Shown: positions 6,264-29,520, numbered from the stretch's first letter. The stretch: 35,571 nucleotides of DNA from an uncultured virus (IMG/VR IMGVR_UViG_3300027732_000002) (IMGVR_UViG_3300027732_000002); one strand, 5' to 3'. Notes: generated by a model not told the origin, from the letters alone. Numbers and translations are program-made.

Positions 6264-7022
6264 TTAAGTTTCTTTCTGGGTTAATAAATCGTTTAGATTT
6301 GTGATGATTGTTATGCCGTATTCCTCGGCCTTCTTACGTTTCGTGCTAGCCTTGTCTTCTTCATCAACAAGGTAGTTAGTAGTACGCGTTACCGCCTCTA
6401 CTACTTTGAATCCTGCGGCTGCCAGTACCTTGGCTGCTTCGGATTTCGTTTTATAACTTACTAGCTTGCCAGTAATACATACTGTCAAGCTGTTAGTATC
6501 TGGTAGTTCTGCTTTACTAGAACGGAAATCAAAGGGCAAAAACTCTTTGATTTCTTGAAAGTCGGTTGCCAACCAAGTTAGCAAATTCTCTGTTACTTTA
6601 GCACCTAGTCCTGCTGCTTTACAGGTTTCTTCGTTGATTTCGTCAATATGACCCACTACTGCACAGATCTTGGTGGTAGCCGTATTACCCACTAGAGGGA
6701 TAGCAAAACTTGTTAATACTGTTGCAAGATCGGCTGACTTAGCCTTATTGATTTCAATAATTAACTTTTCAGCTAGACGATCTGAACCTAGAACCTCAAC
6801 AAGCTCAGACTCTTCCAACCAAAAGATTTCAGTAATATCAGCAAGATTTAGTTTTTGCACTGTTTTTGGGCCAAGACCCTTAATACTTAGTGTACGGCAA
6901 AAATGTTCAATCTTCTTTGACAACTGAGCACCACAGGCTAGATTTCTACAAAAGAGTTGGGCATTAACCAACTCTAGGGGGTAGTCACAGCACGGGCAGT
7001 TAGTTGGAATTTCGATAATCAT
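6264..7022 (-). CDS. ligB: NAD-dependent DNA ligase subunit B (Zn finger, HhH, BRCT)
   Basis: CPCC...CRNLAC zinc finger, IKGLGPK HhH, VCITGKL BRCT. Confidence 0.92.
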   Translation of the reverse strand: MIIEIPTNCPCCDYPLELVNAQLFCRNLACGAQLSKKIEHFCRTLSIKGLGPKTVQKLNLADITEIFWLEESELVEVLGSDRLAEKLIIEINKAKSADLATVLTSFAIPLVGNTATTKICAVVGHIDEINEETCKAAGLGAKVTENLLTWLATDFQEIKEFLPFDFRSSKAELPDTNSLTVCITGKLVSYKTKSEAAKVLAAAGFKVVEAVTRTTNYLVDEEDKASTKRKKAEEYGITIITNLNDLLTQKET

Positions 7023-7048: not shown

Positions 7049-7077
7049 ATTATACGGTAAAAGGCTACACAGTTCAA
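7049..7077 (-). promoter_or_regulatory. sigma70-type promoter for ligB-D5
   Basis: TTGAAC-17 nt-TATAAT. Confidence 0.75.
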
Positions 7078-7093
7078 GTCTAAATTTTGATAC

Positions 7094-8041
7094 CTACTCG
7101 ACCTTATGCAACACTTGCGGAATGATCTCACCAGCACGTCGAACTGCTACTGTGTCACCAATGCGTAGATCTAGTGTACGAATAAACTCACCATTATTAA
7201 GAGTTGCCCTAGATACCAAAGCATCGCCAATAAGTACAGGCTGTAAAATTGCCACGGGAGTGACTTTGCCTGACTTTCCAACTTGCCATTCGACTGATAA
7301 TAGTGTTGTTTCAACATGAGCAGACCGCTCCTTTTGTGCGTAGGCACCTCGAGGATGCTTACTAGTATGTCCTAGAACATCAAAGTCAGCGTTATTGTTG
7401 ACTCTGAACACTAAACCGTCTGTAGGGTAGACTTCGCTTAAGTTGCGGTCTTGGACGGTAGAAAATCCCATCTTCTTTAGAGAAGCGAGATCGCTAGTAA
7501 ATTCTTCGGTGATATAGGGATAAACACCATACGCAAAGAATTCAATAGAACGAGTACGAAACTCGTCTACAGAGTTTAGATTTAGTGCACCAGCCGCATA
7601 GTTGCGTGCGTTTTCAACGTGTTTAGGAGCACATACCTCACCTGTTACTTGGATAACACCTAAATGCTTGATTTTGTTTGGTACTAGCTTTGTGTTTGTA
7701 AACTTTTCAGTAACGTCTTTGCCTTCGATACCATCACCACGAGTAAGCGCCTGAGTTAAAACACCATTAATGTACAGCAAACTTACGGCTGCGCCGTCAA
7801 GTTTAGGAGTCATTGACTTGTTTTTATGGTCAGGCAGGGGCACAGCACCCTCGTCTACATAGTACTTCTGTAGGCTGTACATTCTGTGGTAGTGGCGGCA
7901 CACATCTTCATGTTGACGAGCGCCAACGGCACTATACCCAATTTGGTCGGCCAGTGCATCAAATACCTCATCAGTGATGATGGGTGATCCAGCGTAATAC
8001 TGAATACTTGCTTCGTCTAGAAAGTCTTTGATTTTGTTCAT
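7094..8041 (-). CDS. ligA: NAD-dependent DNA ligase subunit A (adenylation + OB domains)
   Basis: KLDG motif I, LTRGDG, TGE, ARNYAAG, TDGLV, RAGEIIP. Confidence 0.95.
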   Translation of the reverse strand: MNKIKDFLDEASIQYYAGSPIITDEVFDALADQIGYSAVGARQHEDVCRHYHRMYSLQKYYVDEGAVPLPDHKNKSMTPKLDGAAVSLLYINGVLTQALTRGDGIEGKDVTEKFTNTKLVPNKIKHLGVIQVTGEVCAPKHVENARNYAAGALNLNSVDEFRTRSIEFFAYGVYPYITEEFTSDLASLKKMGFSTVQDRNLSEVYPTDGLVFRVNNNADFDVLGHTSKHPRGAYAQKERSAHVETTLLSVEWQVGKSGKVTPVAILQPVLIGDALVSRATLNNGEFIRTLDLRIGDTVAVRRAGEIIPQVLHKVE

Positions 8042-10214: not shown

Positions 10215-10779
10215 TTTTGCTTTCTTTGCGTAGGTTTGCTAGTTTGTCGTGGATTGCTTTAACTCGTGTTCGTACTTCGTCTGAGTCCATCCAAATGTCT
10301 TTGTTTTCCAACATTTGAGTAATTTCTGTTGATGTTAAAAACTCCTTGTAAACATTTTCTAGTAGTTTGCGTGACCAAGCTCGTTCAAACTGAATTTGGT
10401 CGTAAATTTCACCACCCTTACCAAATGCACCACCTGCGTAATTGTGGAACATAAATAAAGCATGATCGCAGATTTCTAGTTCATCTGCGGATAAAAAGAT
10501 CATTGTAGCAGCAGACATACACGCGCCTTCTACTGAACAGATTACATATGCTGAGGTGGACTTTAGCGCGTGCATAAACTGGATTGCAGTATCTACATTA
10601 CCACCCGGGCTGTTGATGTAGATCTTTACAGTATCTTGGTCACTAGCAGAACGAATTACGTTTAACCATTCTACATAATCTTCTGGTTCTGTGATCTCTC
10701 CGGAAAGGTAAAACTCATGCAGTTGAGCAATAGTCTTACTAAAAACATTCTTGGGCTTGCTATCTTCTAGGTCAAACAT
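10201..10779 (-). CDS. clpP: ClpP-like serine protease
   Basis: YINSPGG, ACMSAATMI (catalytic Ser), FMFH (His), DIWM (Asp). Confidence 0.9.
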   Translation of the reverse strand: MFDLEDSKPKNVFSKTIAQLHEFYLSGEITEPEDYVEWLNVIRSASDQDTVKIYINSPGGNVDTAIQFMHALKSTSAYVICSVEGACMSAATMIFLSADELEICDHALFMFHNYAGGAFGKGGEIYDQIQFERAWSRKLLENVYKEFLTSTEITQMLENKDIWMDSDEVRTRVKAIHDKLANLRKESKNEED

Positions 10780-10803
10780 GGTCAGCCCTTTATAAAAAGT
10801 TGA

Positions 10804-10877
10804 TGGAGCGACAAGTGGGAATCGAACCCACGTCCTTAGCTTGGAAGGCTATGATTCTGCCATTGAACTACTGTCGC
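10804..10877 (-). tRNA. tRNA-Gly(TCC)
   Basis: Cloverleaf, loop CTTCCAA, GTTCGATTC, encoded CCA. Confidence 0.93.
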
Positions 10878-10957
10878 GGCTATGGTATATCCCATCAAAA
10901 GCACTCTCACGGTTTATCTTTCCGTTCCTGAATACACAGACAAGAGTGCTTTTGATG

Positions 10958-11252
10958 TGGGGGAATATTATTGGATAAGGAATTCCCCCGAAACCTCAGC
11001 TTAGCTAGTTTTTCAGGCTGCTAGAGCGAATTGTAGATCGTTTGCATTTAATTGCTTTGCTTGATTTACAGTCATCGCCTACTGGATTGTCCATGCATAT
11101 ACTCTTTGCCCTGTCGAAACCTTGTCAGCCCCATCAAAAGCATACTAAGACCTTTTGGCTACTGCCGATACTAGTCAGAATATGCTTTTGGTGGAGCTGG
11201 CGGGAATCGAACCCGCGTCCAGAACTTATTTCTAATTACTTCATACAATCAT
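10958..11252 (-). ncRNA. ssrA: Permuted (two-piece) tmRNA, tag ANDLQFALAA; outer ends approximate
   Basis: Acceptor piece ending GGTTCGATTCCCGCCAGCTCCACCA (11189) comes before an intervening hairpin and the GGGGCTGAC..GGTTTCGAC start (11132); tag frame 11045-11013. Confidence 0.9.
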
Positions 11253-11253
11253 A

Positions 11254-11322
11254 GCATCTCGGTTTGGATTCGAACCTTGTCCTAGTGTTGTCCACCCGCA
11301 CGTCCCACCGTACTGACCGAAA
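11254..11322 (-). ncRNA. tRNA-like element (degenerate)
   Basis: Acceptor-like TTTCGGT/ACCGAGA and GGTTCGAATCC T-loop, but no canonical anticodon arm or CCA. Confidence 0.45.
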
Positions 11323-11325
11323 ATT

Positions 11326-11517
11326 TTACCAAGTAACTGGTTCTTTAGTGATTGTGCGTAGACCCATGTTTACTAGGCACAATAGCCCTGCTTGCATGGT
11401 GGGGTCAAAGATAAACCCAGACTGCATTTGCATAAATAGCCCTAGTACTGCTAGGACGTTAATCCATAGTGTTTTAGATAGCCAAAATGCTTTTCCTGTT
11501 AATACTTGTTCTGTCAT
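11326..11517 (-). CDS. Small two-TM membrane protein (holin-like)
   Basis: KAFWLSKTLWINVL...GLRTITKEPV; two hydrophobic segments. Confidence 0.65.
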   Translation of the reverse strand: MTEQVLTGKAFWLSKTLWINVLAVLGLFMQMQSGFIFDPTMQAGLLCLVNMGLRTITKEPVTW

Positions 11518-11774
11518 GTTCGATCCTTAATGTTGGTGTCAATAAATTGACGTAGGCTGTGGGTTAGGTCAAAGTCAGCCTTTAGTTCTTCAACGGCATC
11601 AATAAAATCTTGAAGTAGGCCGTCATACTCAGCGGCAAAACTGTCGCGCTCGGTAGGCTCGATCTCTGAAACCTCAATACCTATCAACTTATTACTAGGT
11701 TCACGAATAACAAGAACCTTGCGGTTAGTAATCTTGCCTTTTGCGTCTGTGTAAGTAAATTCAGTATATTTCAT
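11514..11774 (-). CDS. Hypothetical protein
   Basis: 86 aa ORF with GAGG RBS, behind a promoter. Confidence 0.75.
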   Translation of the reverse strand: MKYTEFTYTDAKGKITNRKVLVIREPSNKLIGIEVSEIEPTERDSFAAEYDGLLQDFIDAVEELKADFDLTHSLRQFIDTNIKDRT

Positions 11775-11800
11775 AGTTGTTTGTGGCCTCGTGAATATCT

Positions 11801-11829
11801 ATTATACACAAAATGATCGACAACATCAA
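11801..11829 (-). promoter_or_regulatory. sigma70-type promoter
   Basis: TTGATG-17-TATAAT. Confidence 0.7.
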
Positions 11830-11839
11830 GTGTAAAATT

Positions 11840-12103
11840 TTACTCTTGATTATTCAAAAACGATTTATGGAGTGCGTGACGAAATGTAGCCCCCATTTTT
11901 GGTATAATTACTAGTGGAAAGAATAAAGGAGCCACAATGAATATTAGTACCGCGCTAGCTAGGTAAGTAATCCAACTATGTTTAACTACTGTAATTTCTG
12001 GGTTTTTGCCTTTTAATACCCAGATTACTGGCATTACCAGTTCATAAACACCTGCTATTGCCGTTGTTAAAGCAAATATCAGATAGATCTCTAACCCCGT
12101 CAA
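11840..12103 (-). CDS. Membrane protein, hypothetical
   Basis: Two hydrophobic segments; TTGA coupling to the upstream gene. Confidence 0.7.
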   Translation of the reverse strand: MTGLEIYLIFALTTAIAGVYELVMPVIWVLKGKNPEITVVKHSWITYLASAVLIFIVAPLFFPLVIIPKMGATFRHALHKSFLNNQE

Positions 12104-12495
12104 AACTTAACACCTGTTACAACACGAGCACGGGCCTCTAGTGTGAACATACCAAACTCAGAAGTAGACTTGGTTTTGACTGCAACACTAAATGGGCCTG
12201 GTAGGGTTAATGCTGGGGCCGAGACTTTTTCGTTTGTTGAAAAGATTTCAGGATGGCACACACCCTTAAACTCCTTCATTAGCCCAGCAATACGTCGCTT
12301 AGTACTACTCCACATTGCGGTGGTAGGGGTCTTACGACGATAATGAATATTCTTCATTGCTGTAACGATTTGTTCGTTATTTGGGTGGCGTTTTTGTGCT
12401 CGCAGAAGCTTTGCTAGTCGATTGGTTTCCCAACGCTTTGTGCCCTTATAGCTAGATGCTTGAGACTCTTTACTAGCGCCTTTTTTATTTGCCAT
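12100..12495 (-). CDS. Basic hypothetical protein
   Basis: 131 aa Lys/Arg-rich ORF in a coupled operon. Confidence 0.75.
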   Translation of the reverse strand: MANKKGASKESQASSYKGTKRWETNRLAKLLRAQKRHPNNEQIVTAMKNIHYRRKTPTTAMWSSTKRRIAGLMKEFKGVCHPEIFSTNEKVSAPALTLPGPFSVAVKTKSTSEFGMFTLEARARVVTGVKF

Positions 12496-12748
12496 TATAT
12501 TTATTTCCTACTAGAATTGTGTTGTTTTTGGTAATGGACAGTTCAATCATATCCATACTGTCCAGCAATTTTAAGCTGTGTAGTACGTCGTCTTCTGATT
12601 CGCAAATAGTGCCCCCTAGGTATAGGAACGCTTGCGTTAGATTTAGTGCTTGTTGGGTTAGTAGTTGAGGAGCACGACTAGGAAACAGCGAAAGGATGCT
12701 GCTTAGCGGGTTAAAATCATTGATCGGTGTGACTTTCATTTTGTACAA
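12485..12748 (-). CDS. Hypothetical protein
   Basis: Fills the gap between thyX and the next gene, overlapping both. Confidence 0.6.
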   Translation of the reverse strand: MYKMKVTPINDFNPLSSILSLFPSRAPQLLTQQALNLTQAFLYLGGTICESEDDVLHSLKLLDSMDMIELSITKNNTILVGNKYNGK

Positions 12749-13391
12749 TGTTTGAGATACTAGGAAATTGTTCTACCATAATGTCTAGGCATAGATTTGC
12801 TACTTCACGGTGTTCTTTTTGAGTTTCGATACCACAGCGTAACTGGCAGTAATGAATCCAACTTCGAAGGTTACCGGCCATGTATAGCCGACTCATTGTA
12901 TTGCCTTCGGGTAACACAGCGCGAGCCTGTTCCTTAGCAATGCCATTAGTAATTGCCCAGTTATAGACTTGGCGAGTAAGTCCAATAAGACCTTGCTGTT
13001 TTTCTTCCCAGAGTTGTGCTAGCTCGCGATCGGTTGCAGGAGTACTAGCCTGACGATTCTTGGCATCCTGCATACGACACTCACGAACCTCAAAGCCTAG
13101 TTCATCACCACGAGCATAGCGTTGGCTAAACTCTTGGAAACTAAATGAGCGATGACGAAGAATTTGACGAGCAATGTCGCGGGTTGTCTGGATTTCCATT
13201 ACCATGGAAACCATCTCAAATGGTGACCAATGTTGGTGACGAACTAGATAGCTCAGCAGTTTATTAGAAGTTGTGGTATTGGCCTGATTTGCAGGATTAC
13301 TAACACGAGCTGCGTAGGCTACTAGATCTTCTGCACTATCGGCCACGTCTACTACAGGCATTGTAATGCCGATTAGAGTTACGTTAGGCAA
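12717..13391 (-). CDS. thyX: Flavin-dependent thymidylate synthase
   Basis: HQHWSPFE, RQILRHRSFSFQEFSQRY (ThyX motif), KEQARAVLP, TQKEHR. Confidence 0.96.
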   Translation of the reverse strand: MPNVTLIGITMPVVDVADSAEDLVAYAARVSNPANQANTTTSNKLLSYLVRHQHWSPFEMVSMVMEIQTTRDIARQILRHRSFSFQEFSQRYARGDELGFEVRECRMQDAKNRQASTPATDRELAQLWEEKQQGLIGLTRQVYNWAITNGIAKEQARAVLPEGNTMSRLYMAGNLRSWIHYCQLRCGIETQKEHREVANLCLDIMVEQFPSISNIVQNESHTDQ

Positions 13392-13701
13392 GGATACGTA
13401 CTCCAGTGTATTGATGGGTACAGTTGATTATTTCTTCCTCGTCATCTCGCATACGCTCTTCAATTGTAGCGCGCAGGTTGATGAGTTCTTGTAGGGCATA
13501 AGTGGCTTCACATAGGGCATCAATCTGATCTAGATCAAATGGAACCATGCGACCACAAGTATCGTGCAAACGTACACACCCGTCACTATCAGTTTCCATC
13601 ATGTAGAAAAAGTGATTGCCAGTGTCTGGGTCTTGAAACATTTCGTCAGTTTCGGCGTGGGTATATTCTTCGGGATCGACTTCAGCAAAAAAGATTTTCA
13701 T
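13384..13701 (-). CDS. Hypothetical acidic protein
   Basis: 105 aa ORF overlapping the thyX start. Confidence 0.75.
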   Translation of the reverse strand: MKIFFAEVDPEEYTHAETDEMFQDPDTGNHFFYMMETDSDGCVRLHDTCGRMVPFDLDQIDALCEATYALQELINLRATIEERMRDDEEEIINCTHQYTGVRILA

Positions 13702-13742
13702 TTTAGTTGATTTGTTTGGTTGTAGTGGTGGGGTGAATATAA

Positions 13743-13771
13743 ATTATATCGCAATTTAACAACAACTTCAA
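13743..13771 (-). promoter_or_regulatory. sigma70-type promoter
   Basis: TTGAAG-17-TATAAT. Confidence 0.7.
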
Positions 13772-13788
13772 GTATGTTTTTTCAAACT

Positions 13789-13821
13789 AAAAAAGCCCTA
13801 GAAGGTTGGTTCTAGGGCTTT
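13789..13821 (-). terminator. Rho-independent terminator
   Basis: AAAGCCCTAGAA/TTCTAGGGCTTT stem plus T tail on the minus strand. Confidence 0.8.
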
Positions 13822-13921
13822 GGTTAGATATGTACTACAGTACAAAAGTTAGCACGGTTAAAGTGCCAGACTAGGAATGTGTTTGGTAGTTGTGGTGGGA
13901 AATGATAAATAACAGGTGTGC

Positions 13922-14086
13922 TCAAAATAACTCCAGTTGAGTAGGTTCGCGATAACATACTACACCTTTGCCAAGGTCTTGCAGGTCATTGAAGTATTCT
14001 AGTGACACATCAAGAACACAATTGCAACAGCGATAGTTATAGTGACCTTTGTCATTTATACTCTGAAACACCCATAAGTGACTCAT
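13922..14086 (-). CDS. Small Cys-containing protein ending in QLELF (54 aa, not in ORF track)
   Basis: Read manually: ATGA overlap; MSHLWVFQSINDKGHYNYRCCNC...REPTQLELF. Confidence 0.55.
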   Translation of the reverse strand: MSHLWVFQSINDKGHYNYRCCNCVLDVSLEYFNDLQDLGKGVVCYREPTQLELF

Positions 14087-14376
14087 TCTGGCCGTTCCGT
14101 AGGAAAAGGCCAGGGGGTGAAATCTACTTCATACTCGTCTGCTTCTTCCGGCTCGGCGTCTACAGGCTTTTTACCAACTTTGATAATGTTAATATCAAAG
14201 CCCAGCTCGTGGCCCATGTCGGCAACTAGAGACTCTACGTCTAAGTATAGGTGGCCTTCTGTGTCAGTTTCTACATCAAAGTAGTCCTGTAGAGCGTGTA
14301 GTTTGCTCTCGGCCTTAATAACAGTCTGGCTAAGTCCAGAAGTTTCTGAAAACTCTGCGATTACATATTTTCTCAT
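14083..14376 (-). CDS. Hypothetical acidic protein
   Basis: Start MRKYVI at 14376 (TAATG coupling). Confidence 0.7.
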   Translation of the reverse strand: MRKYVIAEFSETSGLSQTVIKAESKLHALQDYFDVETDTEGHLYLDVESLVADMGHELGFDINIIKVGKKPVDAEPEEADEYEVDFTPWPFPTERPE

Positions 14377-14510
14377 TATAGATACTCGATAAACATTAGT
14401 GGGCCAAAACGTGTAACACGTCGAACTAAACCTGAGTTGTACTGGGTATCTCGCCACATAAAAGGTGTGCCACGATACCAGTGGGTAAACATGAATCTAT
14501 AGTGCTTCAT
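14376..14510 (-). CDS. Small hypothetical protein (44 aa)
   Basis: Read manually: MKHYRFMFTHWYRG...; coupled at both ends. Confidence 0.45.
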   Translation of the reverse strand: MKHYRFMFTHWYRGTPFMWRDTQYNSGLVRRVTRFGPLMFIEYL

Positions 14511-14671
14511 TTCATGCTAGAGATTAGTTTAGCGGTTTGTTGAGAAAACACTGGTACTGCGTTAGACTTGTGCATTGTTGCAATGCCCAACATTTCTGTA
14601 CCGGTATATCGCTTAACAGGCTTTAGCGCTGTTGAACCACAAAACTTTTGTTTGAATGTGTCGTTTGTCAT
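14507..14671 (-). CDS. Small phage hypothetical protein (YTGxxMLGIATMHKSNAVPVF type)
   Basis: Read manually; I recognise the motif from aquatic phage genomes. Confidence 0.65.
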   Translation of the reverse strand: MTNDTFKQKFCGSTALKPVKRYTGTEMLGIATMHKSNAVPVFSQQTAKLISSMK

Positions 14672-14685
14672 AGTTTTAATTTAGT

Positions 14686-14760
14686 TGGCTCCTCAGACTG
14701 GGATCGAACCAATGACCGAAGCATTAACAGTGCTTAGCTCTGCCTCTGAGCTACTGAGGA
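14686..14760 (-). tRNA. tRNA-Asn(GTT)
   Basis: Cloverleaf, loop CTGTTAA, CCA. Confidence 0.93.
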
Positions 14761-14761
14761 A

Positions 14762-15070
14762 TTAAGTGTGTGTTACTTTCTTAATGGCGGTTTGTTTAAT
14801 AGCCGAAGTACAAATAGCACAGGGCTTTGACAATACAGGCTGACCCTGTTCATTATAACGAAAGATACTAATGGAGTGAGCTTTTGAAATATCTAAGCAA
14901 CGAGTAATAGCATGGATCTCAGCGTGTAAAAAGATCTTGTAGTCTTCACCAACCCTAGCAGCGTGTTTAGCCTGCAGTGGGTGTGATTTAACGTAGTTAT
15001 TCTGACCGATTGAAAGCACGTTGCCTTTACGATCATAAATAATAGCGGTTACTTTGTGTCGTTTACTCAT
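14762..15070 (-). CDS. Zinc-dependent cytidine/dCMP-deaminase-fold protein
   Basis: HAE and PCAIC zinc motifs. Confidence 0.85.
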   Translation of the reverse strand: MSKRHKVTAIIYDRKGNVLSIGQNNYVKSHPLQAKHAARVGEDYKIFLHAEIHAITRCLDISKAHSISIFRYNEQGQPVLSKPCAICTSAIKQTAIKKVTHT

Positions 15071-15081
15071 GATCCTAATCG

Positions 15082-15125
15082 TGTTGCTTAAAGATTATTA
15101 TACAATCTTTAAGCAACAAAATCAA
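15082..15125 (-). promoter_or_regulatory. sigma70 promoter whose -10 sits in the loop of a 15-bp inverted repeat
   Basis: TTGATT(15125-15120)-17-TATAAT(15102-15097); arms 15082-15096 and 15104-15118. Confidence 0.75.
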
Positions 15126-15280
15126 GATGATTTTGTTGCCCCTGCGTGCACGCAGAGAACTGTAACAAGGACGCGTACAGAGCCTAATTTGTCCACTTTG
15201 TTTACGTTCTAAAGTCTCTTGGTGAAGCACCTTCCTCTTAGGGCGGTAATGCTCTCTGAGCTTTCGGTAACGAACACTTG

Positions 15281-15475
15281 TTACTTGTCTTTATTAACCA
15301 TTTTATACATATCTTCCATACTCAGGTACTCACTAGAACTATCTTTCCTAGGTACCATCTCATCCTGAATATGAATAGCGGCTGCCGCTGCGTGGCAAGC
15401 CTCTAGGGTATTAAATACGCAGCTGCCATTGACGCCGTACTTGTACTTGCCGTTTGAACATTTCATGCAAGGCAT
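15281..15475 (-). CDS. Small Cys-rich hypothetical protein
   Basis: AAGGAG RBS; start MPCMKCSNGKYKYG (the longer ORF runs into tRNA-Cys). Confidence 0.7.
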   Translation of the reverse strand: MPCMKCSNGKYKYGVNGSCVFNTLEACHAAAAAIHIQDEMVPRKDSSSEYLSMEDMYKMVNKDK

Positions 15476-15494
15476 GACTAACTCCTTAATTGAC

Positions 15495-15569
15495 TGGACA
15501 CCCGAGTAGGACTCAAACCTACATAAAGTGGATTTGCAATCCACTGCATGATCTCTCTGCCATCGAGTG
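15495..15569 (-). tRNA. tRNA-Cys(GCA)
   Basis: Loop TTGCAAA, U73, CCA; atypical T-loop TTTGAGT. Confidence 0.88.
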
Positions 15570-15573
15570 GTTG

Positions 15574-15648
15574 TGGCGGTCTCAAGGGGTAACGATCCCC
15601 TTCCTCATGCGTGACAGGCATGTATGCGTCCGTGAACACTTTAAGACC
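15574..15648 (-). tRNA. tRNA-Asp(GTC)
   Basis: Loop CTGTCAC, G73, CCA; atypical T-loop ATCGTTA. Confidence 0.88.
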
Positions 15649-15653
15649 TGATA

Positions 15654-15730
15654 TGGTGCGGAAGGAGAGACTCGAACTCTCAGCTTACGGCTTCTAAGAC
15701 CGCTGCGTTTACCAATTTCGCCACTCCCGC
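15654..15730 (-). tRNA. tRNA-Leu(TAG), short variable loop
   Basis: Loop CTTAGAA, CCA, 77 nt. Confidence 0.9.
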
Positions 15731-15999
15731 TATGCTACAACGCCTGCTGTTATTACTACCACAGTAGACTCTTTTTCGTAAAGTTCCCAGTGTGGAAAAT
15801 ATCTAAAGGGTTCGTGTACATAAGTACCGTCTTCCTTTAGTATCATATAACTAAGGCGACTAACACGTTCATTGTACTCTGGATTGTTATCCTCGTAAGT
15901 ACCAATGTAGTGATGTTCTAGATCACGATTATCGCCTGGAACTACAAAAAACTGTGTTCCAATGACTTCTGAATCATACCAACAAATAATTGTTTTCAT
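15730..15999 (-). CDS. Hypothetical protein
   Basis: 89 aa ORF between tRNAs. Confidence 0.7.
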   Translation of the reverse strand: MKTIICWYDSEVIGTQFFVVPGDNRDLEHHYIGTYEDNNPEYNERVSRLSYMILKEDGTYVHEPFRYFPHWELYEKESTVVVITAGVVA

Positions 16000-16013
16000 A
16001 ATACCTAAAATGT

Positions 16014-16089
16014 TGGTGCCCCCACTACGATTCGAACGCAGGACCTACGGTTTACAAAACCGTTGCTCTACCTGCTGAGCTATAGGGGC
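16014..16089 (-). tRNA. tRNA-Thr(TGT)
   Basis: ACGGT-TTTGTAA-ACCGT anticodon arm, CCA. Confidence 0.92.
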
Positions 16090-16097
16090 GAAAAACT

Positions 16098-16172
16098 TGG
16101 TGGACCGCCGGAGGATCGAACTCCGACTAAAGCCTTGCAAAGGCCCTGTGCTCCCATTATCACTAGCAGCCC
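16098..16172 (-). tRNA. tRNA-Ala(TGC)
   Basis: Loop TTTGCAA, G3-U70 pair, CCA. Confidence 0.92.
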
Positions 16173-16422
16173 ATATTGAAACACACCCAGACGTAGTAGG
16201 TCTTTAGTCCAGCAAGATACAGGGCTACTACTCCTGTCATTGCTTGAATGTGTTTCAATATGGCCCCAGTCCCTAAACTGGTGTCATATTGTCTTTGCGG
16301 AGGACGACGATCCCTGTGTATCTTGGGGGCGGACAAACACACTCTACACCGGCGTGTGTTTGTTTTTCGATAAGATCACTATAACCTAGGGAAGGGTTGT
16401 AGTGATCTTAGCACCGCGTGTC

Positions 16423-16515
16423 TGGTGGGTGTTCTTGGAGTCGAACCAAGAATGTTTACCTGATAGGACGAGATTTACAGTCTCGGGATGCACACGCCAT
16501 AGCATCAAAACACCC
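16423..16515 (-). tRNA. tRNA-Tyr(GTA)
   Basis: Loop CTGTAAA, long variable arm, CCA. Confidence 0.88.
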
Positions 16516-16521
16516 TATATC

Positions 16522-16597
16522 TGGTAGGACGAGTGGGGTACGATCCCACGGCCAATAGATTAAAAGTCTACTGCTCTACCTGCTGAGCTATCGTCCT
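16522..16597 (-). tRNA. tRNA-Lys(TTT)
   Basis: Loop CTTTTAA, CCA; atypical T-loop ATCGTAC. Confidence 0.9.
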
Positions 16598-16602
16598 GTA
16601 TC

Positions 16603-16677
16603 TGGTACTCGATAGGAGAATTGAACTCCTATTACTGGAATGAAAATCCAGCGTCCTTACCGTTAGACGAATCGAGC
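16603..16677 (-). tRNA. tRNA-Glu(TTC)
   Basis: CTGGA-TTTTCAT-TCCAG anticodon arm, CCA. Confidence 0.9.
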
Positions 16678-16684
16678 ATAAATC

Positions 16685-16760
16685 TGGTAGGCCCCCAGGG
16701 AGTCGAACCCTGTCCTAACGATTATGAGTCGTTTGCTATTACCACATTAGCTTAGGGCCC
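16685..16760 (-). tRNA. tRNA-Ile2/Met(CAT), probably Ile2
   Basis: CGACTCATAATCG anticodon arm and GGGCCCT acceptor resemble bacterial Ile2. Confidence 0.85.
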
Positions 16761-16887
16761 GAATGGTTATAGCGATTCCATAGGAGAACACACCACCCTT
16801 GCATTGTTAGGGCACGGTAAAAGAATTGAGGATTAGACCTCTCTAGTACGATGTGTTCTACTATGGAATCTCTCAGTCTAAGTATCT

Positions 16888-16916
16888 ATTATATCAACTT
16901 TTACTAGCGATATCAA
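16888..16916 (-). promoter_or_regulatory. sigma70-type promoter for the tRNA cluster
   Basis: TTGATA-17-TATAAT. Confidence 0.75.
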
Positions 16917-16923
16917 GTGTGTT

Positions 16924-17136
16924 TTATAGCCGTGTTTTCATTTCTGTTAGAGCAATCTTCAGACCACTAATTTTGTCTAAGATGACATCAAACTCAGCGT
17001 TGCTCTTTTCAGCCAGGTGCGTTTCTTCGCCTTGCACTGTTACTTCAGCACCTAGATCTCGTAATACCCTAGCGATAACAACCATAAGATATCCCTTGTG
17101 TGAGTGCTCTGGGCCGGATATTTCAATTTGAACCAT
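16924..17136 (-). CDS. Hypothetical protein
   Basis: 70 aa ORF overlapping the upstream gene. Confidence 0.65.
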   Translation of the reverse strand: MVQIEISGPEHSHKGYLMVVIARVLRDLGAEVTVQGEETHLAEKSNAEFDVILDKISGLKIALTEMKTRL

Positions 17137-17431
17137 TTCGTTCTGCCTTTAAGTCATGTTGTTTTAGCAAAGCCTCAATAGCATGGATCAAATAATGTTC
17201 CCGTTCTGAGATTTCAAAGATGCCGTCACCTAGTGGATCTGCTTGATACACAAGTGTACCGCCCACATCGGGATAAACAACAGTAAAATGACCATGCCGA
17301 AGCCTAAGATAACCAATTTGTGTTCCTTCTAGGAACACATCATACTGTTCTGGACAGGCGTAACACGTCATTAGGAGATCACACCCCATAATGCTTAAGT
17401 GATTATGAACGCCTTCGCTGTCTTCAAACAT
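17123..17431 (-). CDS. Hypothetical protein (ACPEQYDV..GYLRLRHG type)
   Basis: AAGGA RBS; motif I recognise from phage hypotheticals. Confidence 0.75.
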   Translation of the reverse strand: MFEDSEGVHNHLSIMGCDLLMTCYACPEQYDVFLEGTQIGYLRLRHGHFTVVYPDVGGTLVYQADPLGDGIFEISEREHYLIHAIEALLKQHDLKAERNGSN

Positions 17432-17449
17432 TTTGGTTCCTTATTCTAA

Positions 17450-17526
17450 TGGCAGGGGATGATGGACTCGAACCACCGAAATGTCAGAATCAAAATCTGA
17501 TGCCTTACCAACTTGGCGAATCCCCT
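17450..17526 (-). tRNA. tRNA-Gln(TTG)
   Basis: TCAGA-TTTTGAT-TCTGA anticodon arm, G73, CCA. Confidence 0.92.
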
Positions 17527-17679
17527 ATAGTTAATAGCATAAGTCTGTGGGGGGCTGCAACCCACCACCTTGCACATTGCAGTATGCCACAAATCATACC
17601 ATTTATTGTAGATATTTGTGCTTATGCTATTAACTATAGGGGCTATGGCCGAAGCCATAGCCGTTCGATCTAAGTAATT

Positions 17680-17708
17680 ATTATATCAAATTAGTGAGAT
17701 AAACTCAA
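17680..17708 (-). promoter_or_regulatory. sigma70-type promoter
   Basis: TTGAGT-17-TATAAT. Confidence 0.7.
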
Positions 17709-17712
17709 GTGA

Positions 17713-17928
17713 TTATTTTAAACGGTCTGAGAATAACTGAAAAATCCAAGCGCCCATTGAAACTACAGCGGAACCTAGTACCATGATACCCCAGCGTAGA
17801 GCGTTGTTACGGTCTTGTTCTAGAGCTGCGATCTTCATCGCATCTTGATCTTGACGTTCTTCTAAAGAGTTGATCTTTTCCTGTAGCACAGCGATGATAA
17901 CCGCCGTCTGTGTGTTGGAATCATCCAT
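17713..17928 (-). CDS. Coiled-coil protein with C-terminal TM helix (XhlA/holin-like architecture)
   Basis: AAGGA RBS; heptad-like N-terminus and WGIMVLGSAVVSMGAWIF. Confidence 0.7.
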   Translation of the reverse strand: MDDSNTQTAVIIAVLQEKINSLEERQDQDAMKIAALEQDRNNALRWGIMVLGSAVVSMGAWIFQLFSDRLK

Positions 17929-17982
17929 GATTAGTCCTTTATTTTAGGTCATAATTCTCTATTTTAGTTAAGAGTTAAAGAT

Positions 17983-18017
17983 AAAAAATCACTATAACCA
18001 GAATTGGTTATAGTGAT
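17983..18017 (-). terminator. Rho-independent terminator
   Basis: ATCACTATAACCA/TGGTTATAGTGAT stem plus T tail on the minus strand. Confidence 0.65.
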
Positions 18018-18178
18018 GAAAGTTGGGGGTCAGCAGGAGCTTCTTCTACTGTGCTATCTGGGGCTGTATCTTTTGGTTTATCTATACCAAAGATACAATC
18101 CCAGCGTGTTGCGTACTCTTCGTTTGTAACGCTAAATGGTCTTGGTGTTGAACCTTTTCCGCCGTCGCTCATAGTCAT
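18008..18178 (-). CDS. Small phage protein (MSDGGKGSxPRPFSV..WDxIFG type)
   Basis: Read manually; ATGA coupling to the phosphoesterase gene. Confidence 0.65.
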   Translation of the reverse strand: MTMSDGGKGSTPRPFSVTNEEYATRWDCIFGIDKPKDTAPDSTVEEAPADPQLSSL

Positions 18179-18954
18179 ACCTCTAAAAACTTTGTGCTAT
18201 AGTTATTATGTTCTGTGCGGCAGGTTTCACGGCCATAACCAGCAGGATTGGCTACCACTCTAGTATTACCCAGCATAGTATCAATAGTATCGTGAGTGTG
18301 CCCATGGATCCAGTAGTTTGCTTTTTCTACAACATGATCCGAGTCGCTAGCAAAGCCACCATTGTGAACAGTGCCAAAACGTGGATGACAAATCTTGTAG
18401 CTAGGAAGATGATGAGTTATAACAACAGTTTTATTCTTACTGATATTTAGTCTGTCGTTTACTTCGTTCATTTGCCAGCGATGAATAACTTGCATATCGC
18501 TAACCTTGAACACGCGGTGGTCAAAAGTAATGTAGCGAAAGTCGCTTACTGCTGTAGCAACACACATTTCTTCTTGGTAAGTGCGACCACCATCTGCCCA
18601 GCCTGTGCAGAATATGAAGTCCACACGACCAATGGTACAATACTCTACAGTACCAGCAGCACAGTAAGTGTTTGACAGTTCTGCACGACAAAGGGTACGA
18701 AAGACCCTATTCCAGTGACACATTTCTGAACCGTAATATTCGTGGTTTCCAGGAACATAAATTACCTTTACGAAGCGTGACTCAACTTGTTTGATAAAGT
18801 CCACGAGAACCACCATCTTGCTGCAAATGTCCCCAGCAAGCACTAACACTGACGACGAATCGCGTGGGTCTGGCGGCAAAAACTTGGACTCTTGGGCTTC
18901 TGGTATGCTCAAAAAACCCTCAAGATGAAGGTCGCTACAGTATCTAATCAGCAT
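18175..18954 (-). CDS. Calcineurin-like metallophosphoesterase
   Basis: SDLH, AGDI, GNHE, THH, HGHTH; GGAGG RBS before MLIRY. Confidence 0.92.
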   Translation of the reverse strand: MLIRYCSDLHLEGFLSIPEAQESKFLPPDPRDSSSVLVLAGDICSKMVVLVDFIKQVESRFVKVIYVPGNHEYYGSEMCHWNRVFRTLCRAELSNTYCAAGTVEYCTIGRVDFIFCTGWADGGRTYQEEMCVATAVSDFRYITFDHRVFKVSDMQVIHRWQMNEVNDRLNISKNKTVVITHHLPSYKICHPRFGTVHNGGFASDSDHVVEKANYWIHGHTHDTIDTMLGNTRVVANPAGYGRETCRTEHNNYSTKFLEV

Positions 18955-19063
18955 GATTTCCTCCATTATAAAATACTACAAACAAGGCGTTTCTTGGTTG
19001 AGGCTAATAATTATGCGTCGGTTGGAAGAATATATCCTTTGACGTCTATAGTATTTTATAATG

Positions 19064-19215
19064 GAACACATTAGGGTGTTATCTGATCTATTTAGGAGTC
19101 CGGTGCGTCCGTTCCATAGCGACTAATCAGTTATATCAGGACGCGTTCCTCGCCAGTTGCGCCCGAGTAGTTACTACGTCTAGTAACGTTACCTTGATAA
19201 CACCCTAATGTATTC
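19064..19215 (-). ncRNA. Candidate structured ncRNA with pseudoknot
   Basis: 16-bp perfect closing stem; GGGCGC/GCGTCC hairpin whose loop TGGCGA can pair with downstream TCGCTA. Confidence 0.5.
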
Positions 19216-19285
19216 AATTAAAAGCCGGTTACGGTTCCGGCGGCGGGATCACTGGTGGTAGTGCTTTCGCCCGTTTTGAATATCT

Positions 19286-19314
19286 ATTATACCCTAAACA
19301 GCATTGGATTTCAA
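19286..19314 (-). promoter_or_regulatory. sigma70-type promoter
   Basis: TTGAAA-17-TATAAT. Confidence 0.75.
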
Positions 19315-19321
19315 GTGTGTT

Positions 19322-19912
19322 TTAAGTATTGGCCTGCTGAAAGGCCTCGGAAAAGCCACGTGGTGTCATAGATCGTAGTTCTTTAGTACGCTCTGACTTA
19401 CCCCCATACCGCATGATGGGTGAGTTGCCCAAGCTAGGTTCTACTGGACGCTTTTCTGGGCGATTGAACACACCCCAGAGTCCTGTTTTCTTGGTATAGG
19501 CTTCAACACTAGGATCCTGCAGCCAACCAGCAAACTCACATGGATTAAAGTACCAGGGTACACCAATCCTGGGTCGTAATTTTGGTAGTCGACCAACAGG
19601 GTTTTCAAGTGCCCAGAACGTGGGGTTGTAGTAGTCTACCAGCTCTAACACTTTGTCTACTAATTTAAGGCTGGCCTCAGTGCGCCCGTCTGAATCTTTC
19701 ACACCCCAGTACTGTGCACCCGACCCTGCAAAGTCTGTGCAAGGGGGAGCAGCTAGTATGCCGTAGACTTCATCAAATGGCATATCACTTGGTTGGAGGT
19801 CGAGTATGTCAATCCCTAGTTTAATGTCTACACGGAATACATTGTATCCACGACTATGGTAGGGGTCAGACCAACGCCCGCTGTAGTCAAATAAACTAAG
19901 GATTGTTTTCAT
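19322..19912 (-). CDS. Short DNA cytosine-5 methyltransferase-like protein
   Basis: LSLFDYSG (motif I-like), APPCTDF (catalytic PC), WALENP (motif VI-like). Confidence 0.8.
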   Translation of the reverse strand: MKTILSLFDYSGRWSDPYHSRGYNVFRVDIKLGIDILDLQPSDMPFDEVYGILAAPPCTDFAGSGAQYWGVKDSDGRTEASLKLVDKVLELVDYYNPTFWALENPVGRLPKLRPRIGVPWYFNPCEFAGWLQDPSVEAYTKKTGLWGVFNRPEKRPVEPSLGNSPIMRYGGKSERTKELRSMTPRGFSEAFQQANT

Positions 19913-27214: not shown

Positions 27215-27230
27215 CCGTAGAAAATTGCAC

Positions 27231-27259
27231 TTGTATATTCCATTTTTCCGTGATATAAT
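27231..27259 (+). promoter_or_regulatory. sigma70-type promoter
   Basis: TTGTAT-17-TATAAT with an extended -10. Confidence 0.65.
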
Positions 27260-27287: not shown

Positions 27288-27406
27288 AAACCTTTTTAAC
27301 AAAGAAATATAAAGCATGGGTTTGAAGATTTTGCGGGGAAAACAAGGGGCCCCGAGAAAATCTTATAAACCCATGCCTTTATAGTCAAACATTGTTAAAA
27401 AGGTTT
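27288..27406. repeat. Large imperfect inverted repeat (119 nt hairpin)
   Basis: AAACCTTTTTAACAA/TTGTTAAAAAGGTTT outer arms plus TATAAAGCATGGGTTT/AAACCCATGCCTTTATA inner arms. Confidence 0.85.
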
Positions 27407-29334: not shown

Positions 29335-29342
29335 AAGTGCGT

Positions 29343-29520
29343 TAGTATCTCCAAATACTAATAAGGGTAAACCCTAACTAATATCTCCAGTTACTAATAA
29401 GGGTTAACCCTAACTAATATCTCCAGTTACTAATAAGGGTTAACCCTAACTAATATCTAATCATACTAATAAGGGTAAACCCTAACTATTATCAAAATAA
29501 ACCAATAAGGGAAAGTACCT
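29343..29520 (+). repeat. 36-nt tandem repeat, about 5 copies, with internal palindrome AGGGTTAACCCT
   Basis: Unit TAATATCTCCAGTTACTAATAAGGGTTAACCCTAAC. Confidence 0.92.

What the first reader, a model, noticed from the sequence alone, without database searches (positions are those of the whole stretch)
10893..19215. Family of long-stem-closed RNA cassettes among the tRNAs
Seen: six intergenic elements of about 65-145 nt, each closed by a near-perfect 15-22 bp stem with no T tail and a different interior: 10893-10957 (15 bp), 16171-16263 (15 bp), 16774-16870 (18 of 19), 17522-17642 (22 bp), 18962-19065 (17 bp) and 19068-19211 (16 bp). Two overlap the first bases of tRNA-Ala and tRNA-Gln. Established: RNase III cuts long stems and releases the enclosed RNA, as in pre-rRNA. 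Inference: a phage small-RNA delivery system in which distinct cargo RNAs (decoys, antitoxin mimics or regulators) are excised from tRNA operon transcripts.
Basis: partly seen in the sequence, partly recalled or inferred. Interest (0 to 1): 0.72.

Follow-up and report, generated by a model that had tools for sequence, protein, structure and literature searches.

The report
Stem-closed spacer RNAs in phage tRNA operons
The long hairpin-closed segments between the tRNA and tmRNA genes of this uncultured T5-like phage are real RNA structures of the same kind as phage T5's long-annotated "stable RNAs", and most likely act as cut-here processing stalks rather than as a delivery system for special cargo RNAs.

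Summary
All six inverted repeats exist at the stated coordinates and are far beyond chance: 6 perfect repeats of 15 bp or more in the window against 0.02 expected. In the 87-kb phage record they occur only in the 8.3-kb tRNA/tmRNA stretch.

The stems are selected as RNA on the tRNA strand. Isolated mismatches are G·U 14 times and A·C twice after de-duplication. Arms covary between relatives.

Interiors are mostly passengers. One shrinks to a short loop in a close relative. Others are replaced wholesale or are decayed tRNAs.

There are two exceptions. The 10893-10957 element is a conserved three-way-junction module, which in 12 of 15 related contigs is the intervening segment of the permuted tmRNA. 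Half of the 16774-16870 interior is invariant.

Phage T5's annotated "stable RNAs" III, IV and 2H have the same architecture, and RNA III has the same swappable interior.

Verdict: a new member of a known kind with unknown function. RNase III cutting is plausible but unproven. The cargo-delivery reading is not supported. Earlier notes of this scan describe the same thing on other DNA.

The parts
19068..19211 (-). Cassette C6: 16-bp perfect closing stem (25 bp with 2 mismatches), 112-nt interior with about three hairpins. It lies behind promoter 19318-19286 and a terminator-like hairpin.
   Evidence: (z -4.43)
18962..19065 (-). Cassette C5: 17-bp perfect closing stem, 70-nt poorly structured interior. 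The 3' arm runs into the GGAGG ribosome-binding site of the metallophosphoesterase gene (ATG at 18966).
   Evidence: (z -6.24)
17522..17642 (-). Cassette C4: 22-bp perfect closing stem, 77-nt interior with three hairpins. The 3' arm overlaps the first 5 nt of tRNA-Gln.
   Evidence: z -6.59
17641..17662 (-). Short GC hairpin between promoter 17712-17680 and C4. T5 has the same order: promoter P13b, hairpin, RNA 2H, tRNA-Ala.
   Evidence: sequence; promoter; T5 comparison
16771..16873 (-). Cassette C3: 19-22-bp closing stem with one mismatch and two interior hairpins. It lies directly behind promoter 16920-16888 and 13 nt before tRNA-Met. The 3' half of the interior is invariant against L010 (0 of 24 positions differ).
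   Evidence: (z -5.36)
16171..16263 (-). Cassette C2: 15-bp perfect stem plus 3 further pairs (two U·G, one C-G), 57-63-nt interior. The 5' arm starts at ..GGGGCCA and the 3' arm ends in the first 2 nt of tRNA-Ala. In L010 the interior is only a short loop and tRNA-Ala is absent.
   Evidence: (z -4.64)
11133..11188 (-). A 12-bp helix stacks on the acceptor stem and the interior is hypervariable among relatives. The arms are paralogous to those of C1.
   Evidence: R1 28.3 bits; z -5.98
10893..10957 (-). Cassette C1: a conserved three-way-junction module (closing stem, 4-bp hairpin 1, 4-bp hairpin 2 with an invariant 9-nt loop). It sits after the tmRNA coding piece and 15 nt before tRNA-Gly.
   Evidence: z -5.53; R1 96.8 bits
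27288..27406 (+). Extra long nested hairpin (15-bp perfect outer stem) behind plus-strand promoter 27227-27259 and before ORF 27493-28296.
   Evidence: z -9.40
16888..16920 (-). Promoter of the phage consensus ACACTTGA-N19-TATAAT in front of C3. Promoters of the same type stand at 17680-17712 (before C4) and 19286-19318 (before C6).
   Evidence: 22 matches against 5.7 expected

Best explanation
The elements are the spacer and leader segments of the phage's polycistronic tRNA/tmRNA transcripts, plus one mRNA leader. In each, the sequence just 3' of one mature RNA (often starting at its CCA) pairs with the sequence just 5' of the next RNA or gene. This forms a 16-25-bp double-stranded stalk that is maintained by selection on the RNA. 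The stalk brings the two maturation sites together. I infer that host RNase III cuts across it while RNase P cuts at the tRNA 5' end. The units are then separated, and the enclosed segment is released as a stem-closed, exonuclease-resistant small RNA. That is what phage T5's annotated stable RNAs III, IV and 2H look like. The stem is the functional unit. The interior is mostly a passenger slot that drifts, shrinks, is swapped, or holds decaying tRNA remnants. The phage's own permuted tmRNA gene uses the same device for its intervening segment, which has to be removed to make the two-piece tmRNA. Shown here: the structures, their RNA-level selection, their placement, interior turnover, and the architectural identity with the T5 RNAs. 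Inferred: the cleaving enzymes and the accumulation of the products.
For: (1) Non-random and localised. There are 6 perfect repeats of 15 bp or more against 0.02 expected. All 5 in G001 lie in the tRNA/tmRNA stretch. Relatives with tRNA arrays carry them too (L011 3, L012 2, L013 8), whereas L014-L031, most of which have no tRNA array, carry 0-1 each. (2) RNA-level selection on the tRNA strand. Isolated mismatches in extended stems of the window and 8 relatives are 16 G·U, 2 A·C and 2 transversion-type. After dropping one homologous duplicate and one cross-cassette pairing this is 14 against 2, binomial p about 0.002. (3) Compensatory evolution. C3 has T-A to C-G plus repair of the mismatch, and its inner hairpin changes G-C to C-G. 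The L012/L013 Thr-to-tmRNA stalk has 3 double changes. In the C1 family 13 of 25 pairs change on both sides, 95.2% of cells are paired, and 0 of 500 shuffles reach this. (4) Interiors are dispensable or variable. (5) Arms sit flush with mature ends. In L011-L013, 8 of 13 perfect repeats begin within 4 nt of a tRNA 3' end or end within 4 nt of a tRNA 5' end. C2 and C4 overlap tRNA 5' ends. (6) The tmRNA intervening segment, which the literature says is removed by tRNA-processing enzymes (PMC11915505, passages), has the same architecture and arms paralogous to C1. (7) T5 RNA III, IV and 2H fold as stem-closed multi-hairpins. RNA III starts after the CCA of RNA I and ends at tRNA-His. RNA 2H follows promoter P13b and a short hairpin and precedes tRNA-Ala. 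The RNA III interior is replaced wholesale among 7 T5-like phages while its outer arms are invariant. (8) The annotated ends of T5 RNA III and RNA 2H lie 7-8 bp inside the helix with exactly a 2-nt 3' overhang, the RNase III geometry. (9) A review states that E. coli RNase III takes part in T4 tRNA maturation (PMC4810235, passages).
Against: No cleavage or RNA ends were observed for this phage. The metatranscriptome data are contigs only and cannot show ends. Several stems are 15-18 bp, shorter than the roughly two helical turns preferred by E. coli RNase III (recalled). The host and its RNase III are unknown, and the 87-kb record encodes no RNase III or dsRNA-binding domain. The basis of the T5 end coordinates is unknown to me, and RNA IV shows a 1-nt rather than a 2-nt overhang. 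The C1 interior is invariant over distant relatives, and the 3' half of the C3 interior shows 0 of 24 changes against 28% at four-fold degenerate sites. So at least two interiors do more than fill space. Tight tRNA pairs in the same operons (gaps of 4-8 nt) are processed without any stalk, so stalks are not generally required. A transcription-linked C-to-T bias could contribute part of the G·U excess.
Confidence: 0.55

Rival explanations
1. Functional cargo RNAs. Each stem-closed interior is a distinct trans-acting small RNA (decoy, sponge, regulator), and the stem serves to excise and stabilise it.
For: The C1 interior is invariant in 4 close relatives. Its 21-nt core is found in 15 viral contigs with covarying stems. 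The 3' half of the C3 interior shows 0 of 24 changes against a 28% neutral proxy. The central part of T5 RNA 2H is conserved in 6 T5-like phages. The T5 counterparts are annotated as stable RNAs. Some interiors in relatives contain T-arm-like pieces or a whole degenerate cloverleaf.
Against: The C2 interior is absent in L010 with the arms intact. The tmRNA intervening interiors are unalignable in 4 close relatives. Interiors are swapped or deleted in the L011/L035 and L012/L013 pairs and in T5 RNA III. No Rfam family matches any interior, and no tRNA-model hit falls inside one at E up to 5. No target or partner was identified.
Confidence: 0.15
2. Passive folding insulators. The helices only sequester spacer sequence, often tRNA debris that could mispair with neighbouring tRNAs. 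Ends are made solely by RNase P, RNase E and exonucleases, and the helix is never cut.
For: Spacers contain T-arm-like and pseudo-tRNA fragments. The stems are selected while the interiors are not. Stems of 15-18 bp may be poor RNase III substrates (recalled).
Against: The annotated ends of T5 RNA III and RNA 2H lie inside the helix with a 2-nt overhang, which indicates cutting within the duplex. A hairpin left on the 3' CCA of the upstream tRNA would block exonucleolytic trimming unless it is cut (inference).
Confidence: 0.15
3. 5'-leader control elements. The promoter-proximal members (C3, C4, C6/C5, 27288-27406) regulate transcript stability, translation or read-through, rather than serving tRNA processing.
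For: Four promoters of the phage consensus are followed directly by such elements. The 3' arm of C5 covers part of the GGAGG site of the downstream gene. A terminator-like hairpin stands between promoter 19318-19286 and C6.
Against: C1, C2 and the tmRNA intervening segment are internal, not at 5' ends. The same architecture links tRNA to tRNA in relatives. No riboswitch or leader family matches.
Confidence: 0.08
4. DNA-level palindromic mobile elements or recombination sites (MITE-, Correia- or attC-like) that insert into or shuffle the tRNA region.
For: Inner arms plus interior are replaced wholesale at fixed outer arms. An extra 91-nt cassette with the same arm type is inserted in L033. The C1 module occupies three different positions in different phages.
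Against: The G·U over A·C asymmetry shows selection on one RNA strand. Every cassette in the window has unique arms, so there are no repeated copies. The 22-nt C4 arm has 0 matches in 185,579 species-representative genomes. tRNA gain and loss between the window and L010 (Glu, Asp) happens without any adjacent stalk. No transposase or integrase was seen among the ORFs scanned.
Confidence: 0.07

Closest known systems
Phage T5 stable RNAs of the tRNA gene region (RNA III, RNA IV, RNA 2H; misc_RNA features in NC_005859, RNA 2H also in BF23 AJ604530)
   Same: They lie in the tRNA cluster of a T5-like phage on the tRNA strand. They are 100-170-nt non-tRNA segments closed by a long terminal helix. 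RNA III starts after the CCA of the preceding RNA and ends at tRNA-His. RNA 2H follows a promoter and a short hairpin and precedes a tRNA, as C4 does. The RNA III interior is swapped among T5-like phages while the outer arms stay, as with C2 and the tmRNA spacer here. Function is annotated as unknown.
   Different: No sequence similarity was detected: blastn of the window region against 50,697 phage records hits only tRNAs, and model R1 scores only 17.4 bits (E 0.44) on T5. The phage is distant, with its best DNA polymerase match at about 48% amino-acid identity. Accumulation as stable RNAs has not been shown here. This phage also applies the device to a permuted tmRNA, which T5 lacks.
Intervening segment (IVS) of circularly permuted, two-piece tmRNA genes (Rfam RF04321, RF01850)
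   Same: 11133-11188 is exactly such a segment, between the acceptor-piece CCA and the 5' G of the coding piece. C1 is homologous to the IVS of 12 of 15 related phage contigs. It is known to be removed by tRNA-processing enzymes (PMC11915505, passages).
   Different: In this lineage the conserved IVS module sits after the coding piece, and another variable sequence fills the IVS slot. The conserved three-way-junction interior is not part of the Rfam models. It was not found in 185,579 bacterial and archaeal genomes or in 50,697 phage records.
RNase III processing stalks (pre-rRNA stems, T7 early mRNA sites, T4 tRNA precursor and species 1 RNA)
   Same: Long double-stranded stems formed by sequences flanking the units of a polycistronic stable-RNA transcript. 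RNase III involvement in T4 tRNA maturation is stated in PMC4810235 (passages).
   Different: Here the helix encloses the spacer, not the mature RNA. Cleavage is untested. Several stems are only 15-18 bp.
Correia/NEMIS and ERIC-type hairpin MITEs
   Same: Elements of 100-150 nt closed by inverted repeats that fold into long hairpins when transcribed. Processing of Correia elements by RNase III is recalled, not seen in any call.
   Different: MITEs are multi-copy families with shared terminal repeats and target duplications. Here every element is unique, and none was found in bacterial genomes for the arm tested.

Membership tests
T5-type stable RNAs of the tRNA region (RNA III/IV/2H) | Lies within the tRNA gene cluster of a T5-like phage, on the tRNA strand | tested here: met
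   13 tRNAs and a tmRNA on the minus strand. T5-like gene set: D5-like regulator, split NAD ligase, PolA, ClpP-like protease.
T5-type stable RNAs of the tRNA region (RNA III/IV/2H) | Non-tRNA segment of about 100-170 nt closed by a long terminal helix around several hairpins | tested here: met
   Window folds; T5 RNA III, IV and 2H folds.
T5-type stable RNAs of the tRNA region (RNA III/IV/2H) | Sequence or model-level homology to the T5 RNAs | tested here: not met
   blastn of window 10700-19400 and 16100-19400 against phage records matches only tRNAs. No Rfam family exists for them.
T5-type stable RNAs of the tRNA region (RNA III/IV/2H) | Accumulates as a discrete stable RNA in infected cells | not testable with these tools
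   Only assembled metatranscriptome contigs were available.
RNase III processing stalk | Continuous dsRNA of about two helical turns | tested here: inconclusive
   Extended stems are 16-25 bp. C1 and C2 are at the short end.
RNase III processing stalk | Staggered cleavage leaving 2-nt 3' overhangs, dependent on RNase III | not testable with these tools
   Indirect only: the annotated ends of T5 RNA III and RNA 2H give a 2-nt 3' overhang and RNA IV gives 1 nt.
Permuted tmRNA intervening segment | Lies between the acceptor-piece CCA and the 5' end of the coding piece | tested here: met
   Met for 11133-11188. Not met for C1, which lies after the coding piece.
Permuted tmRNA intervening segment | Homology of C1 to the IVS of related phage tmRNA genes | tested here: met
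   The 21-nt core occurs in 15 viral contigs and is in IVS position in 12 of them. Model R1 scores 96.8 bits on C1 and 90 bits on the L011/L035 IVS. 13 of 25 pairs covary.
MITE / Correia-like palindromic mobile element | Multiple copies sharing terminal inverted repeats | tested here: not met
   All arms in the window are unique. The C4 arm has 0 hits in the GTDB genome collection.
Intrinsic terminator | GC-rich hairpin followed by a T run | tested here: not met
   No T tail follows any of the six. None is listed by the terminator scan.
Any curated RNA family (Rfam 15) | Covariance-model match of an interior | tested here: not met
   Gathering and E<=5 scans return only tRNA and tmRNA, plus sub-threshold chance-level hits.

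The most novel reading that the evidence does not exclude
The closing helices define exchangeable slots in the stable-RNA operons of T5-like phages. Host tRNA-processing enzymes and RNase III release whatever sits in a slot as a stem-protected small RNA. Phages swap slot contents by recombination at the conserved arms. Contents include tRNA-derived fragments and the conserved three-way-junction module, which moves between the tmRNA spacer and other positions. At least some contents would then be functional, for example decoys for tRNA-targeting defences or cofactors of phage tmRNA function. This would make it a hypervariable RNA cassette system.
Probability: 0.12. Interest if true: 0.75.

Novelty: new member of a known kind. 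Interest (0 to 1): 0.36.

Why it matters
T5's stable RNAs are annotated in its genome record with function unknown. My four searches of the held library turned up no paper discussing their function. The same architecture in a very distant, uncultured freshwater relative argues that the helix is an old, general device of phage stable-RNA operons. The supporting points are RNA-level selection on the stem, free turnover of the interior, and use of the same device for a permuted tmRNA spacer. This gives a concrete test that can be run in T5: stem mutants against interior mutants, in rnc hosts. A by-product is a conserved, covarying three-way-junction RNA module specific to the tmRNA genes of this phage clade. 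It was absent from bacterial genomes and cultured-phage records at the sensitivity tested, and nobody seems to have described it.

Tried and rejected
1. Rfam at gathering threshold and at E<=5 over 10700-19500: no family for any interior.

2. Closer relatives covering C4, C5 and C6. Protein anchors 18175-18966 and 17123-17431 found only the phage itself, plus one 29% relative, in IMG/VR. Exact-pattern scans for conserved pieces near C2 and in C3 found only the window's own phage and L010. So there is no comparative evidence for C4-C6.

3. Metatranscriptome and metagenome contigs of 4 runs laid on 10700-19400. RNA-library contigs identical to the window cover parts of the region and enter C3, C4 and C5, but contigs cannot show ends, strand or level. 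No two studies stopped at one place. I draw no conclusion from uncovered parts.

4. Phage-encoded RNase III (PF14622) or dsRNA-binding domain (PF00035) in G001: none.

5. Host MITE idea: the C4 arm has 0 hits in the GTDB genome collection.

6. tRNA-cassette or attC-like idea: rejected, because tRNA-Glu and tRNA-Asp are gained or lost between the window and L010 without any adjacent stalk.

7. Hammerhead-like reading of the C1/IVS module (CUGAUGG and GAAA by eye): rejected. The order of the motifs does not fit and there is no Rfam ribozyme hit.

8. Homology between C3 and C4 (a shared CAATG..CAAGG..TGGTG string seen by eye): not pursued. The string falls in different structural contexts in the two folds.

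9. Reading the 160 nt upstream of C2 as a tRNA-like RNA ending in CCA: inconclusive. The putative acceptor pairing is not conserved in L010 and the fold z is only -3.0.

10. Papers PMC516066 and PMC16621 (two-piece tmRNA) are not held. The 1980s T5 stable-RNA papers are recalled only and were not seen.

Full report
**What the window is.**
All genes in 1-24000 are on the minus strand. ARAGORN finds 13 tRNAs and a permuted (two-piece) tmRNA at 10922-11281 with tag ANDLQFALAA. Rfam confirms the tmRNA: RF04321 at 139 bits and RF01850 at 116 bits over 10953-11292. The proteins are those of a T5-like phage:
- PolA-type DNA polymerase
- primase and DnaB-like helicase
- D5-like regulator
- split NAD-dependent ligase
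- ClpP-like protease
- thymidylate synthase

The best DNA polymerase matches are about 48% identical, in Vibrio phages of 120-129 kb. The window is identical over the stretch compared to an 87-kb IMG/VR record (G001) and to a 98.5-kb metagenome contig (L032). No cultured phage is close.

**The observation.**
- With loops of 20-160 nt the window has 6 perfect repeats of 15 bp or more. Second-order Markov shuffles give a mean of 0.02 and a maximum of 1 in 100.
- Folded as minus-strand RNA, each beats its shuffles (z -4.4 to -6.6).
- None has a T tail.
- Two overlap tRNA 5' ends.
- In G001 the perfect long repeats occur only in the 8.3-kb tRNA/tmRNA stretch, none in the other roughly 75 kb.
- Two further members were missed: the tmRNA intervening segment 11133-11188, and a plus-strand element 27288-27406.

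A strong phage promoter consensus, ACACTTGA-N19-TATAAT, gives 22 matches against 5.7 expected. It stands directly upstream of C3 (16771-16873), C4 (17522-17642), C6 (19068-19211) and the plus-strand element.

**Relatives.**
The ClpP-like protein as anchor fetched four sets of relatives:
- L010: 88% amino-acid identity, 77-99% nucleotide identity over window 16928-10102
- L033 and L044: these cover the tmRNA and C1 only
- L011/L035: 66-68% amino-acid identity
- L012 and L013: 56% amino-acid identity

All of these with tRNA arrays also carry long stem-closed spacers (L011 3, L012 2, L013 8). L014-L031, most of which have no tRNA array, carry 0 or 1 each. In L011-L013, 8 of 13 such repeats begin within 4 nt of a tRNA 3' end (arms start CCATAT...) or end within 4 nt of a tRNA 5' end (...ATATGG).

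**The stems are selected as RNA.**
I extended every seed repeat across single mismatches flanked by at least 3 pairs, in the window and 8 relatives. The mismatches are 16 G·U on the tRNA strand, 2 A·C (which would be G·U on the other strand) and 2 transversion-type. Dropping one homologous duplicate and one cross-cassette pairing leaves 14 against 2, binomial p about 0.002. A DNA-level palindrome would show no such asymmetry. A transcription-linked mutation bias could add to it but is unlikely to give seven-fold.

Compensatory changes are seen wherever homologues exist:
- C3 against L010: T-A becomes C-G, the window's single mismatch is paired in L010, and the first inner hairpin changes G-C to C-G.
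- The Thr-to-tmRNA stalk of L012 against L013 has three double changes.
- The tmRNA intervening helix has four different, internally complementary versions in four close relatives.

**The interiors are mostly passengers.**
- C2 (16171-16263): the arms are 100% conserved in L010, but the interior is reduced to a short loop and tRNA-Ala is absent. A DNA run also holds a form that skips 16094-16171.
- tmRNA intervening segment: the interiors are unalignable and of very different length in the window, L010, L033 and L044.
- L011 against L035 (89-95% identical around it): one stalk keeps only its outer 6 bp, and the inner arms plus interior are different sequences. In another, the interior is a degenerate cloverleaf pseudo-tRNA in L011 and a 41-nt remnant in L035.
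- Calibration: four-fold degenerate sites of the ClpP-like gene differ at 17 of 60 (28%) between the window and L010. The 5' half of the C3 interior differs at 16 of 34, at least the neutral level.

**Two interiors are constrained.**
The 3' half of the C3 interior plus the leader to tRNA-Met shows 0 of 37 differences, 0 of 24 and 0 of 13.

The 34-nt interior of C1 (10893-10957) is identical in the window, L010, L033 and L044 while its stem covaries. Its 21-nt core occurs in 15 IMG/VR contigs:
- In 12 it lies between the acceptor-piece CCA and the 5' end of the coding piece, so it is the tmRNA intervening segment. In one of these 12 ARAGORN calls no tmRNA, and I judged the position from the flanks.
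- In 2 (the window's own phage and L010) it lies after the coding piece.
- In 1 it is elsewhere.

On 14 sequences, the structure (closing stem, 4-bp hairpin 1, 4-bp hairpin 2 with an invariant 9-nt loop) has 95.2% of cells paired and 13 of 25 pairs with changes on both sides. None of 500 shuffles and none of the slid controls comes near. A covariance model (R1) scores 96.8 bits on C1, 90 bits on the L011/L035 intervening segments and 28.3 bits on the window's own intervening segment, which has paralogous arms. It scores nothing on C2-C6. The core is absent from 185,579 species-representative genomes as an exact match, and blastn with the 77-nt C1 element found no match in 50,697 phage records. 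In the Rfam beta-tmRNA alignment, C1 replaces the terminal GC hairpin of the bacterial gene.

So the 'family' is one of architecture, not of sequence. C1 plus the intervening segment form one true sequence family.

**Closest known.**
The T5 record NC_005859 annotates eight 'stable RNAs with unknown functions' among its tRNA genes.
- RNA III (106 nt), RNA IV (103 nt) and RNA 2H (172 nt) fold as stem-closed multi-hairpins.
- RNA III begins 4 nt after the CCA of RNA I and ends at tRNA-His.
- RNA 2H follows promoter P13b and a short hairpin and precedes tRNA-Ala. C4 here has the same order: promoter, short hairpin, cassette, tRNA-Gln.
- Among 7 T5-like phages the outer arms of RNA III are invariant, while the inner arms and interior exist in at least three unrelated versions of different length.
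- RNA 2H keeps its closing helix and central hairpin in 6 phages, while two sub-hairpins are swapped.
- The annotated ends of RNA III and RNA 2H lie 7-8 bp inside the helix, with exactly a 2-nt 3' overhang in the minimum-energy fold. RNA IV gives 1 nt. I do not know how those ends were determined.
- A review states that E. coli RNase III takes part in T4 tRNA maturation (PMC4810235, passages).
- The tmRNA database paper states that permuted tmRNA transcripts are cleaved by tRNA-processing enzymes and that the intervening sequence is absent from the mature RNA (PMC11915505, passages).
- Two-piece tmRNAs are known in aquatic phages (PMC9004378, passages).
- The four library searches I ran and the BF23 genome paper (PMC10644984, passages) gave nothing on the function of the T5 stable RNAs. 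The original 1980s papers are recalled, not seen.

**Mechanism.**
The best-supported reading is a processing stalk. The 3' trailer of one RNA pairs with the 5' leader of the next. This forms dsRNA that host RNase III cuts while RNase P cuts at the tRNA 5' end. The spacer is then released as a stem-protected by-product. The phage record encodes no RNase III or dsRNA-binding domain, so the enzyme would be the host's.

For C5, the 3' arm covers part of the GGAGG site of the metallophosphoesterase gene. Cutting or opening the helix could therefore also control translation; this is inference.

What is shown: the structures, their selection at RNA level, their placement, the turnover of interiors, and the likeness to the T5 RNAs. 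What is inferred: the enzymes, and the accumulation of the excised RNAs. The rivals are set out in their own section: functional cargo, passive insulators, leader control and DNA-level elements.

**Limits.**
- C4, C5 and C6 have no homologues in the collections searched, so for them only the statistics and the family-wide G·U argument apply.
- RNA-library contigs identical to the window exist in three studies, but they prove neither transcription nor ends.

**Earlier notes of this scan.**
I called these up after I had stated my own reading. They describe the same architecture in other phages and reach the same comparison with T5 RNA III/IV/2H. One describes the tmRNA spacer as a swappable slot. 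They are not independent evidence.

**Verdict.**
- It is a new member of a known but functionally unexplained kind.
- The added value of this window is threefold: the strand-asymmetry test, the link to the permuted tmRNA spacer, and the conserved phage-specific three-way-junction module.

Noticed in passing
window 19216-19279 (-): Promoter 19318-19286 is followed after about 40 nt by a GC hairpin (19241-19224) and a T run. This would give a roughly 60-nt terminated transcript, or an attenuator, upstream of C6. The order promoter-then-terminator is unusual.
   Followed up: no
window 10922-11292 (-): Phage-encoded permuted (two-piece) tmRNA of the betaproteobacterial type (RF01850), tag ANDLQFALAA, directly followed by tRNA-Gly and a ClpP-like protease gene. 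The tag varies among relatives (ANDSIFAVAA, ANDQVYALAA, ANESVYALAA, ANDETFALAA and others).
   Followed up: partly
L033 2201-2286: An extra 91-nt stem-closed cassette with the same arm type as C1 and the intervening segment, containing a T-arm-like hairpin, is inserted between the tmRNA coding piece and the C1 module. The L010 intervening segment also holds a T-arm-like hairpin.
   Followed up: partly
window 16603-16677, 16098-16172, 15574-15648 (-): tRNA-Glu, tRNA-Ala and tRNA-Asp are present in the window but absent from the close relative L010. A DNA run also holds a form that skips 16094-16171. tRNA content turns over gene by gene.
   Followed up: partly
window 16264-16422 (-): The 160-nt non-coding stretch between tRNA-Tyr and C2 has a 16-bp hairpin whose sequence differs in L010 but stays complementary. 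It also has a second hairpin that is 100% conserved, and it ends in ..GGGGCCA. It may be a further small RNA, by position the counterpart of T5 RNA I.
   Followed up: partly
window 29342-29492 and 33368-33393: A cluster of overlapping palindromes and repeats built on GGGTTAACCC with AT-rich flanks (53-68-nt arms, about 72% complementary). Possibly protein-binding iterons or an origin.
   Followed up: no
window 15730-15999 (-): An 89-aa ORF exactly fills the gap between tRNA-Thr and tRNA-Leu and is conserved in L010 (about 83% nucleotide identity). It has no family match. Similar small ORFs starting MKT follow tRNAs in L011 and L013.
   Followed up: no
L010 6918-7405: An insertion of about 490 nt immediately upstream of the tmRNA acceptor piece, relative to the window, L033 and L044.
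   Followed up: no
window 6264-7022 and 7094-8041 (-): The NAD-dependent DNA ligase is encoded as two adjacent genes, with a promoter-like site between them at 7049-7081.
   Followed up: no
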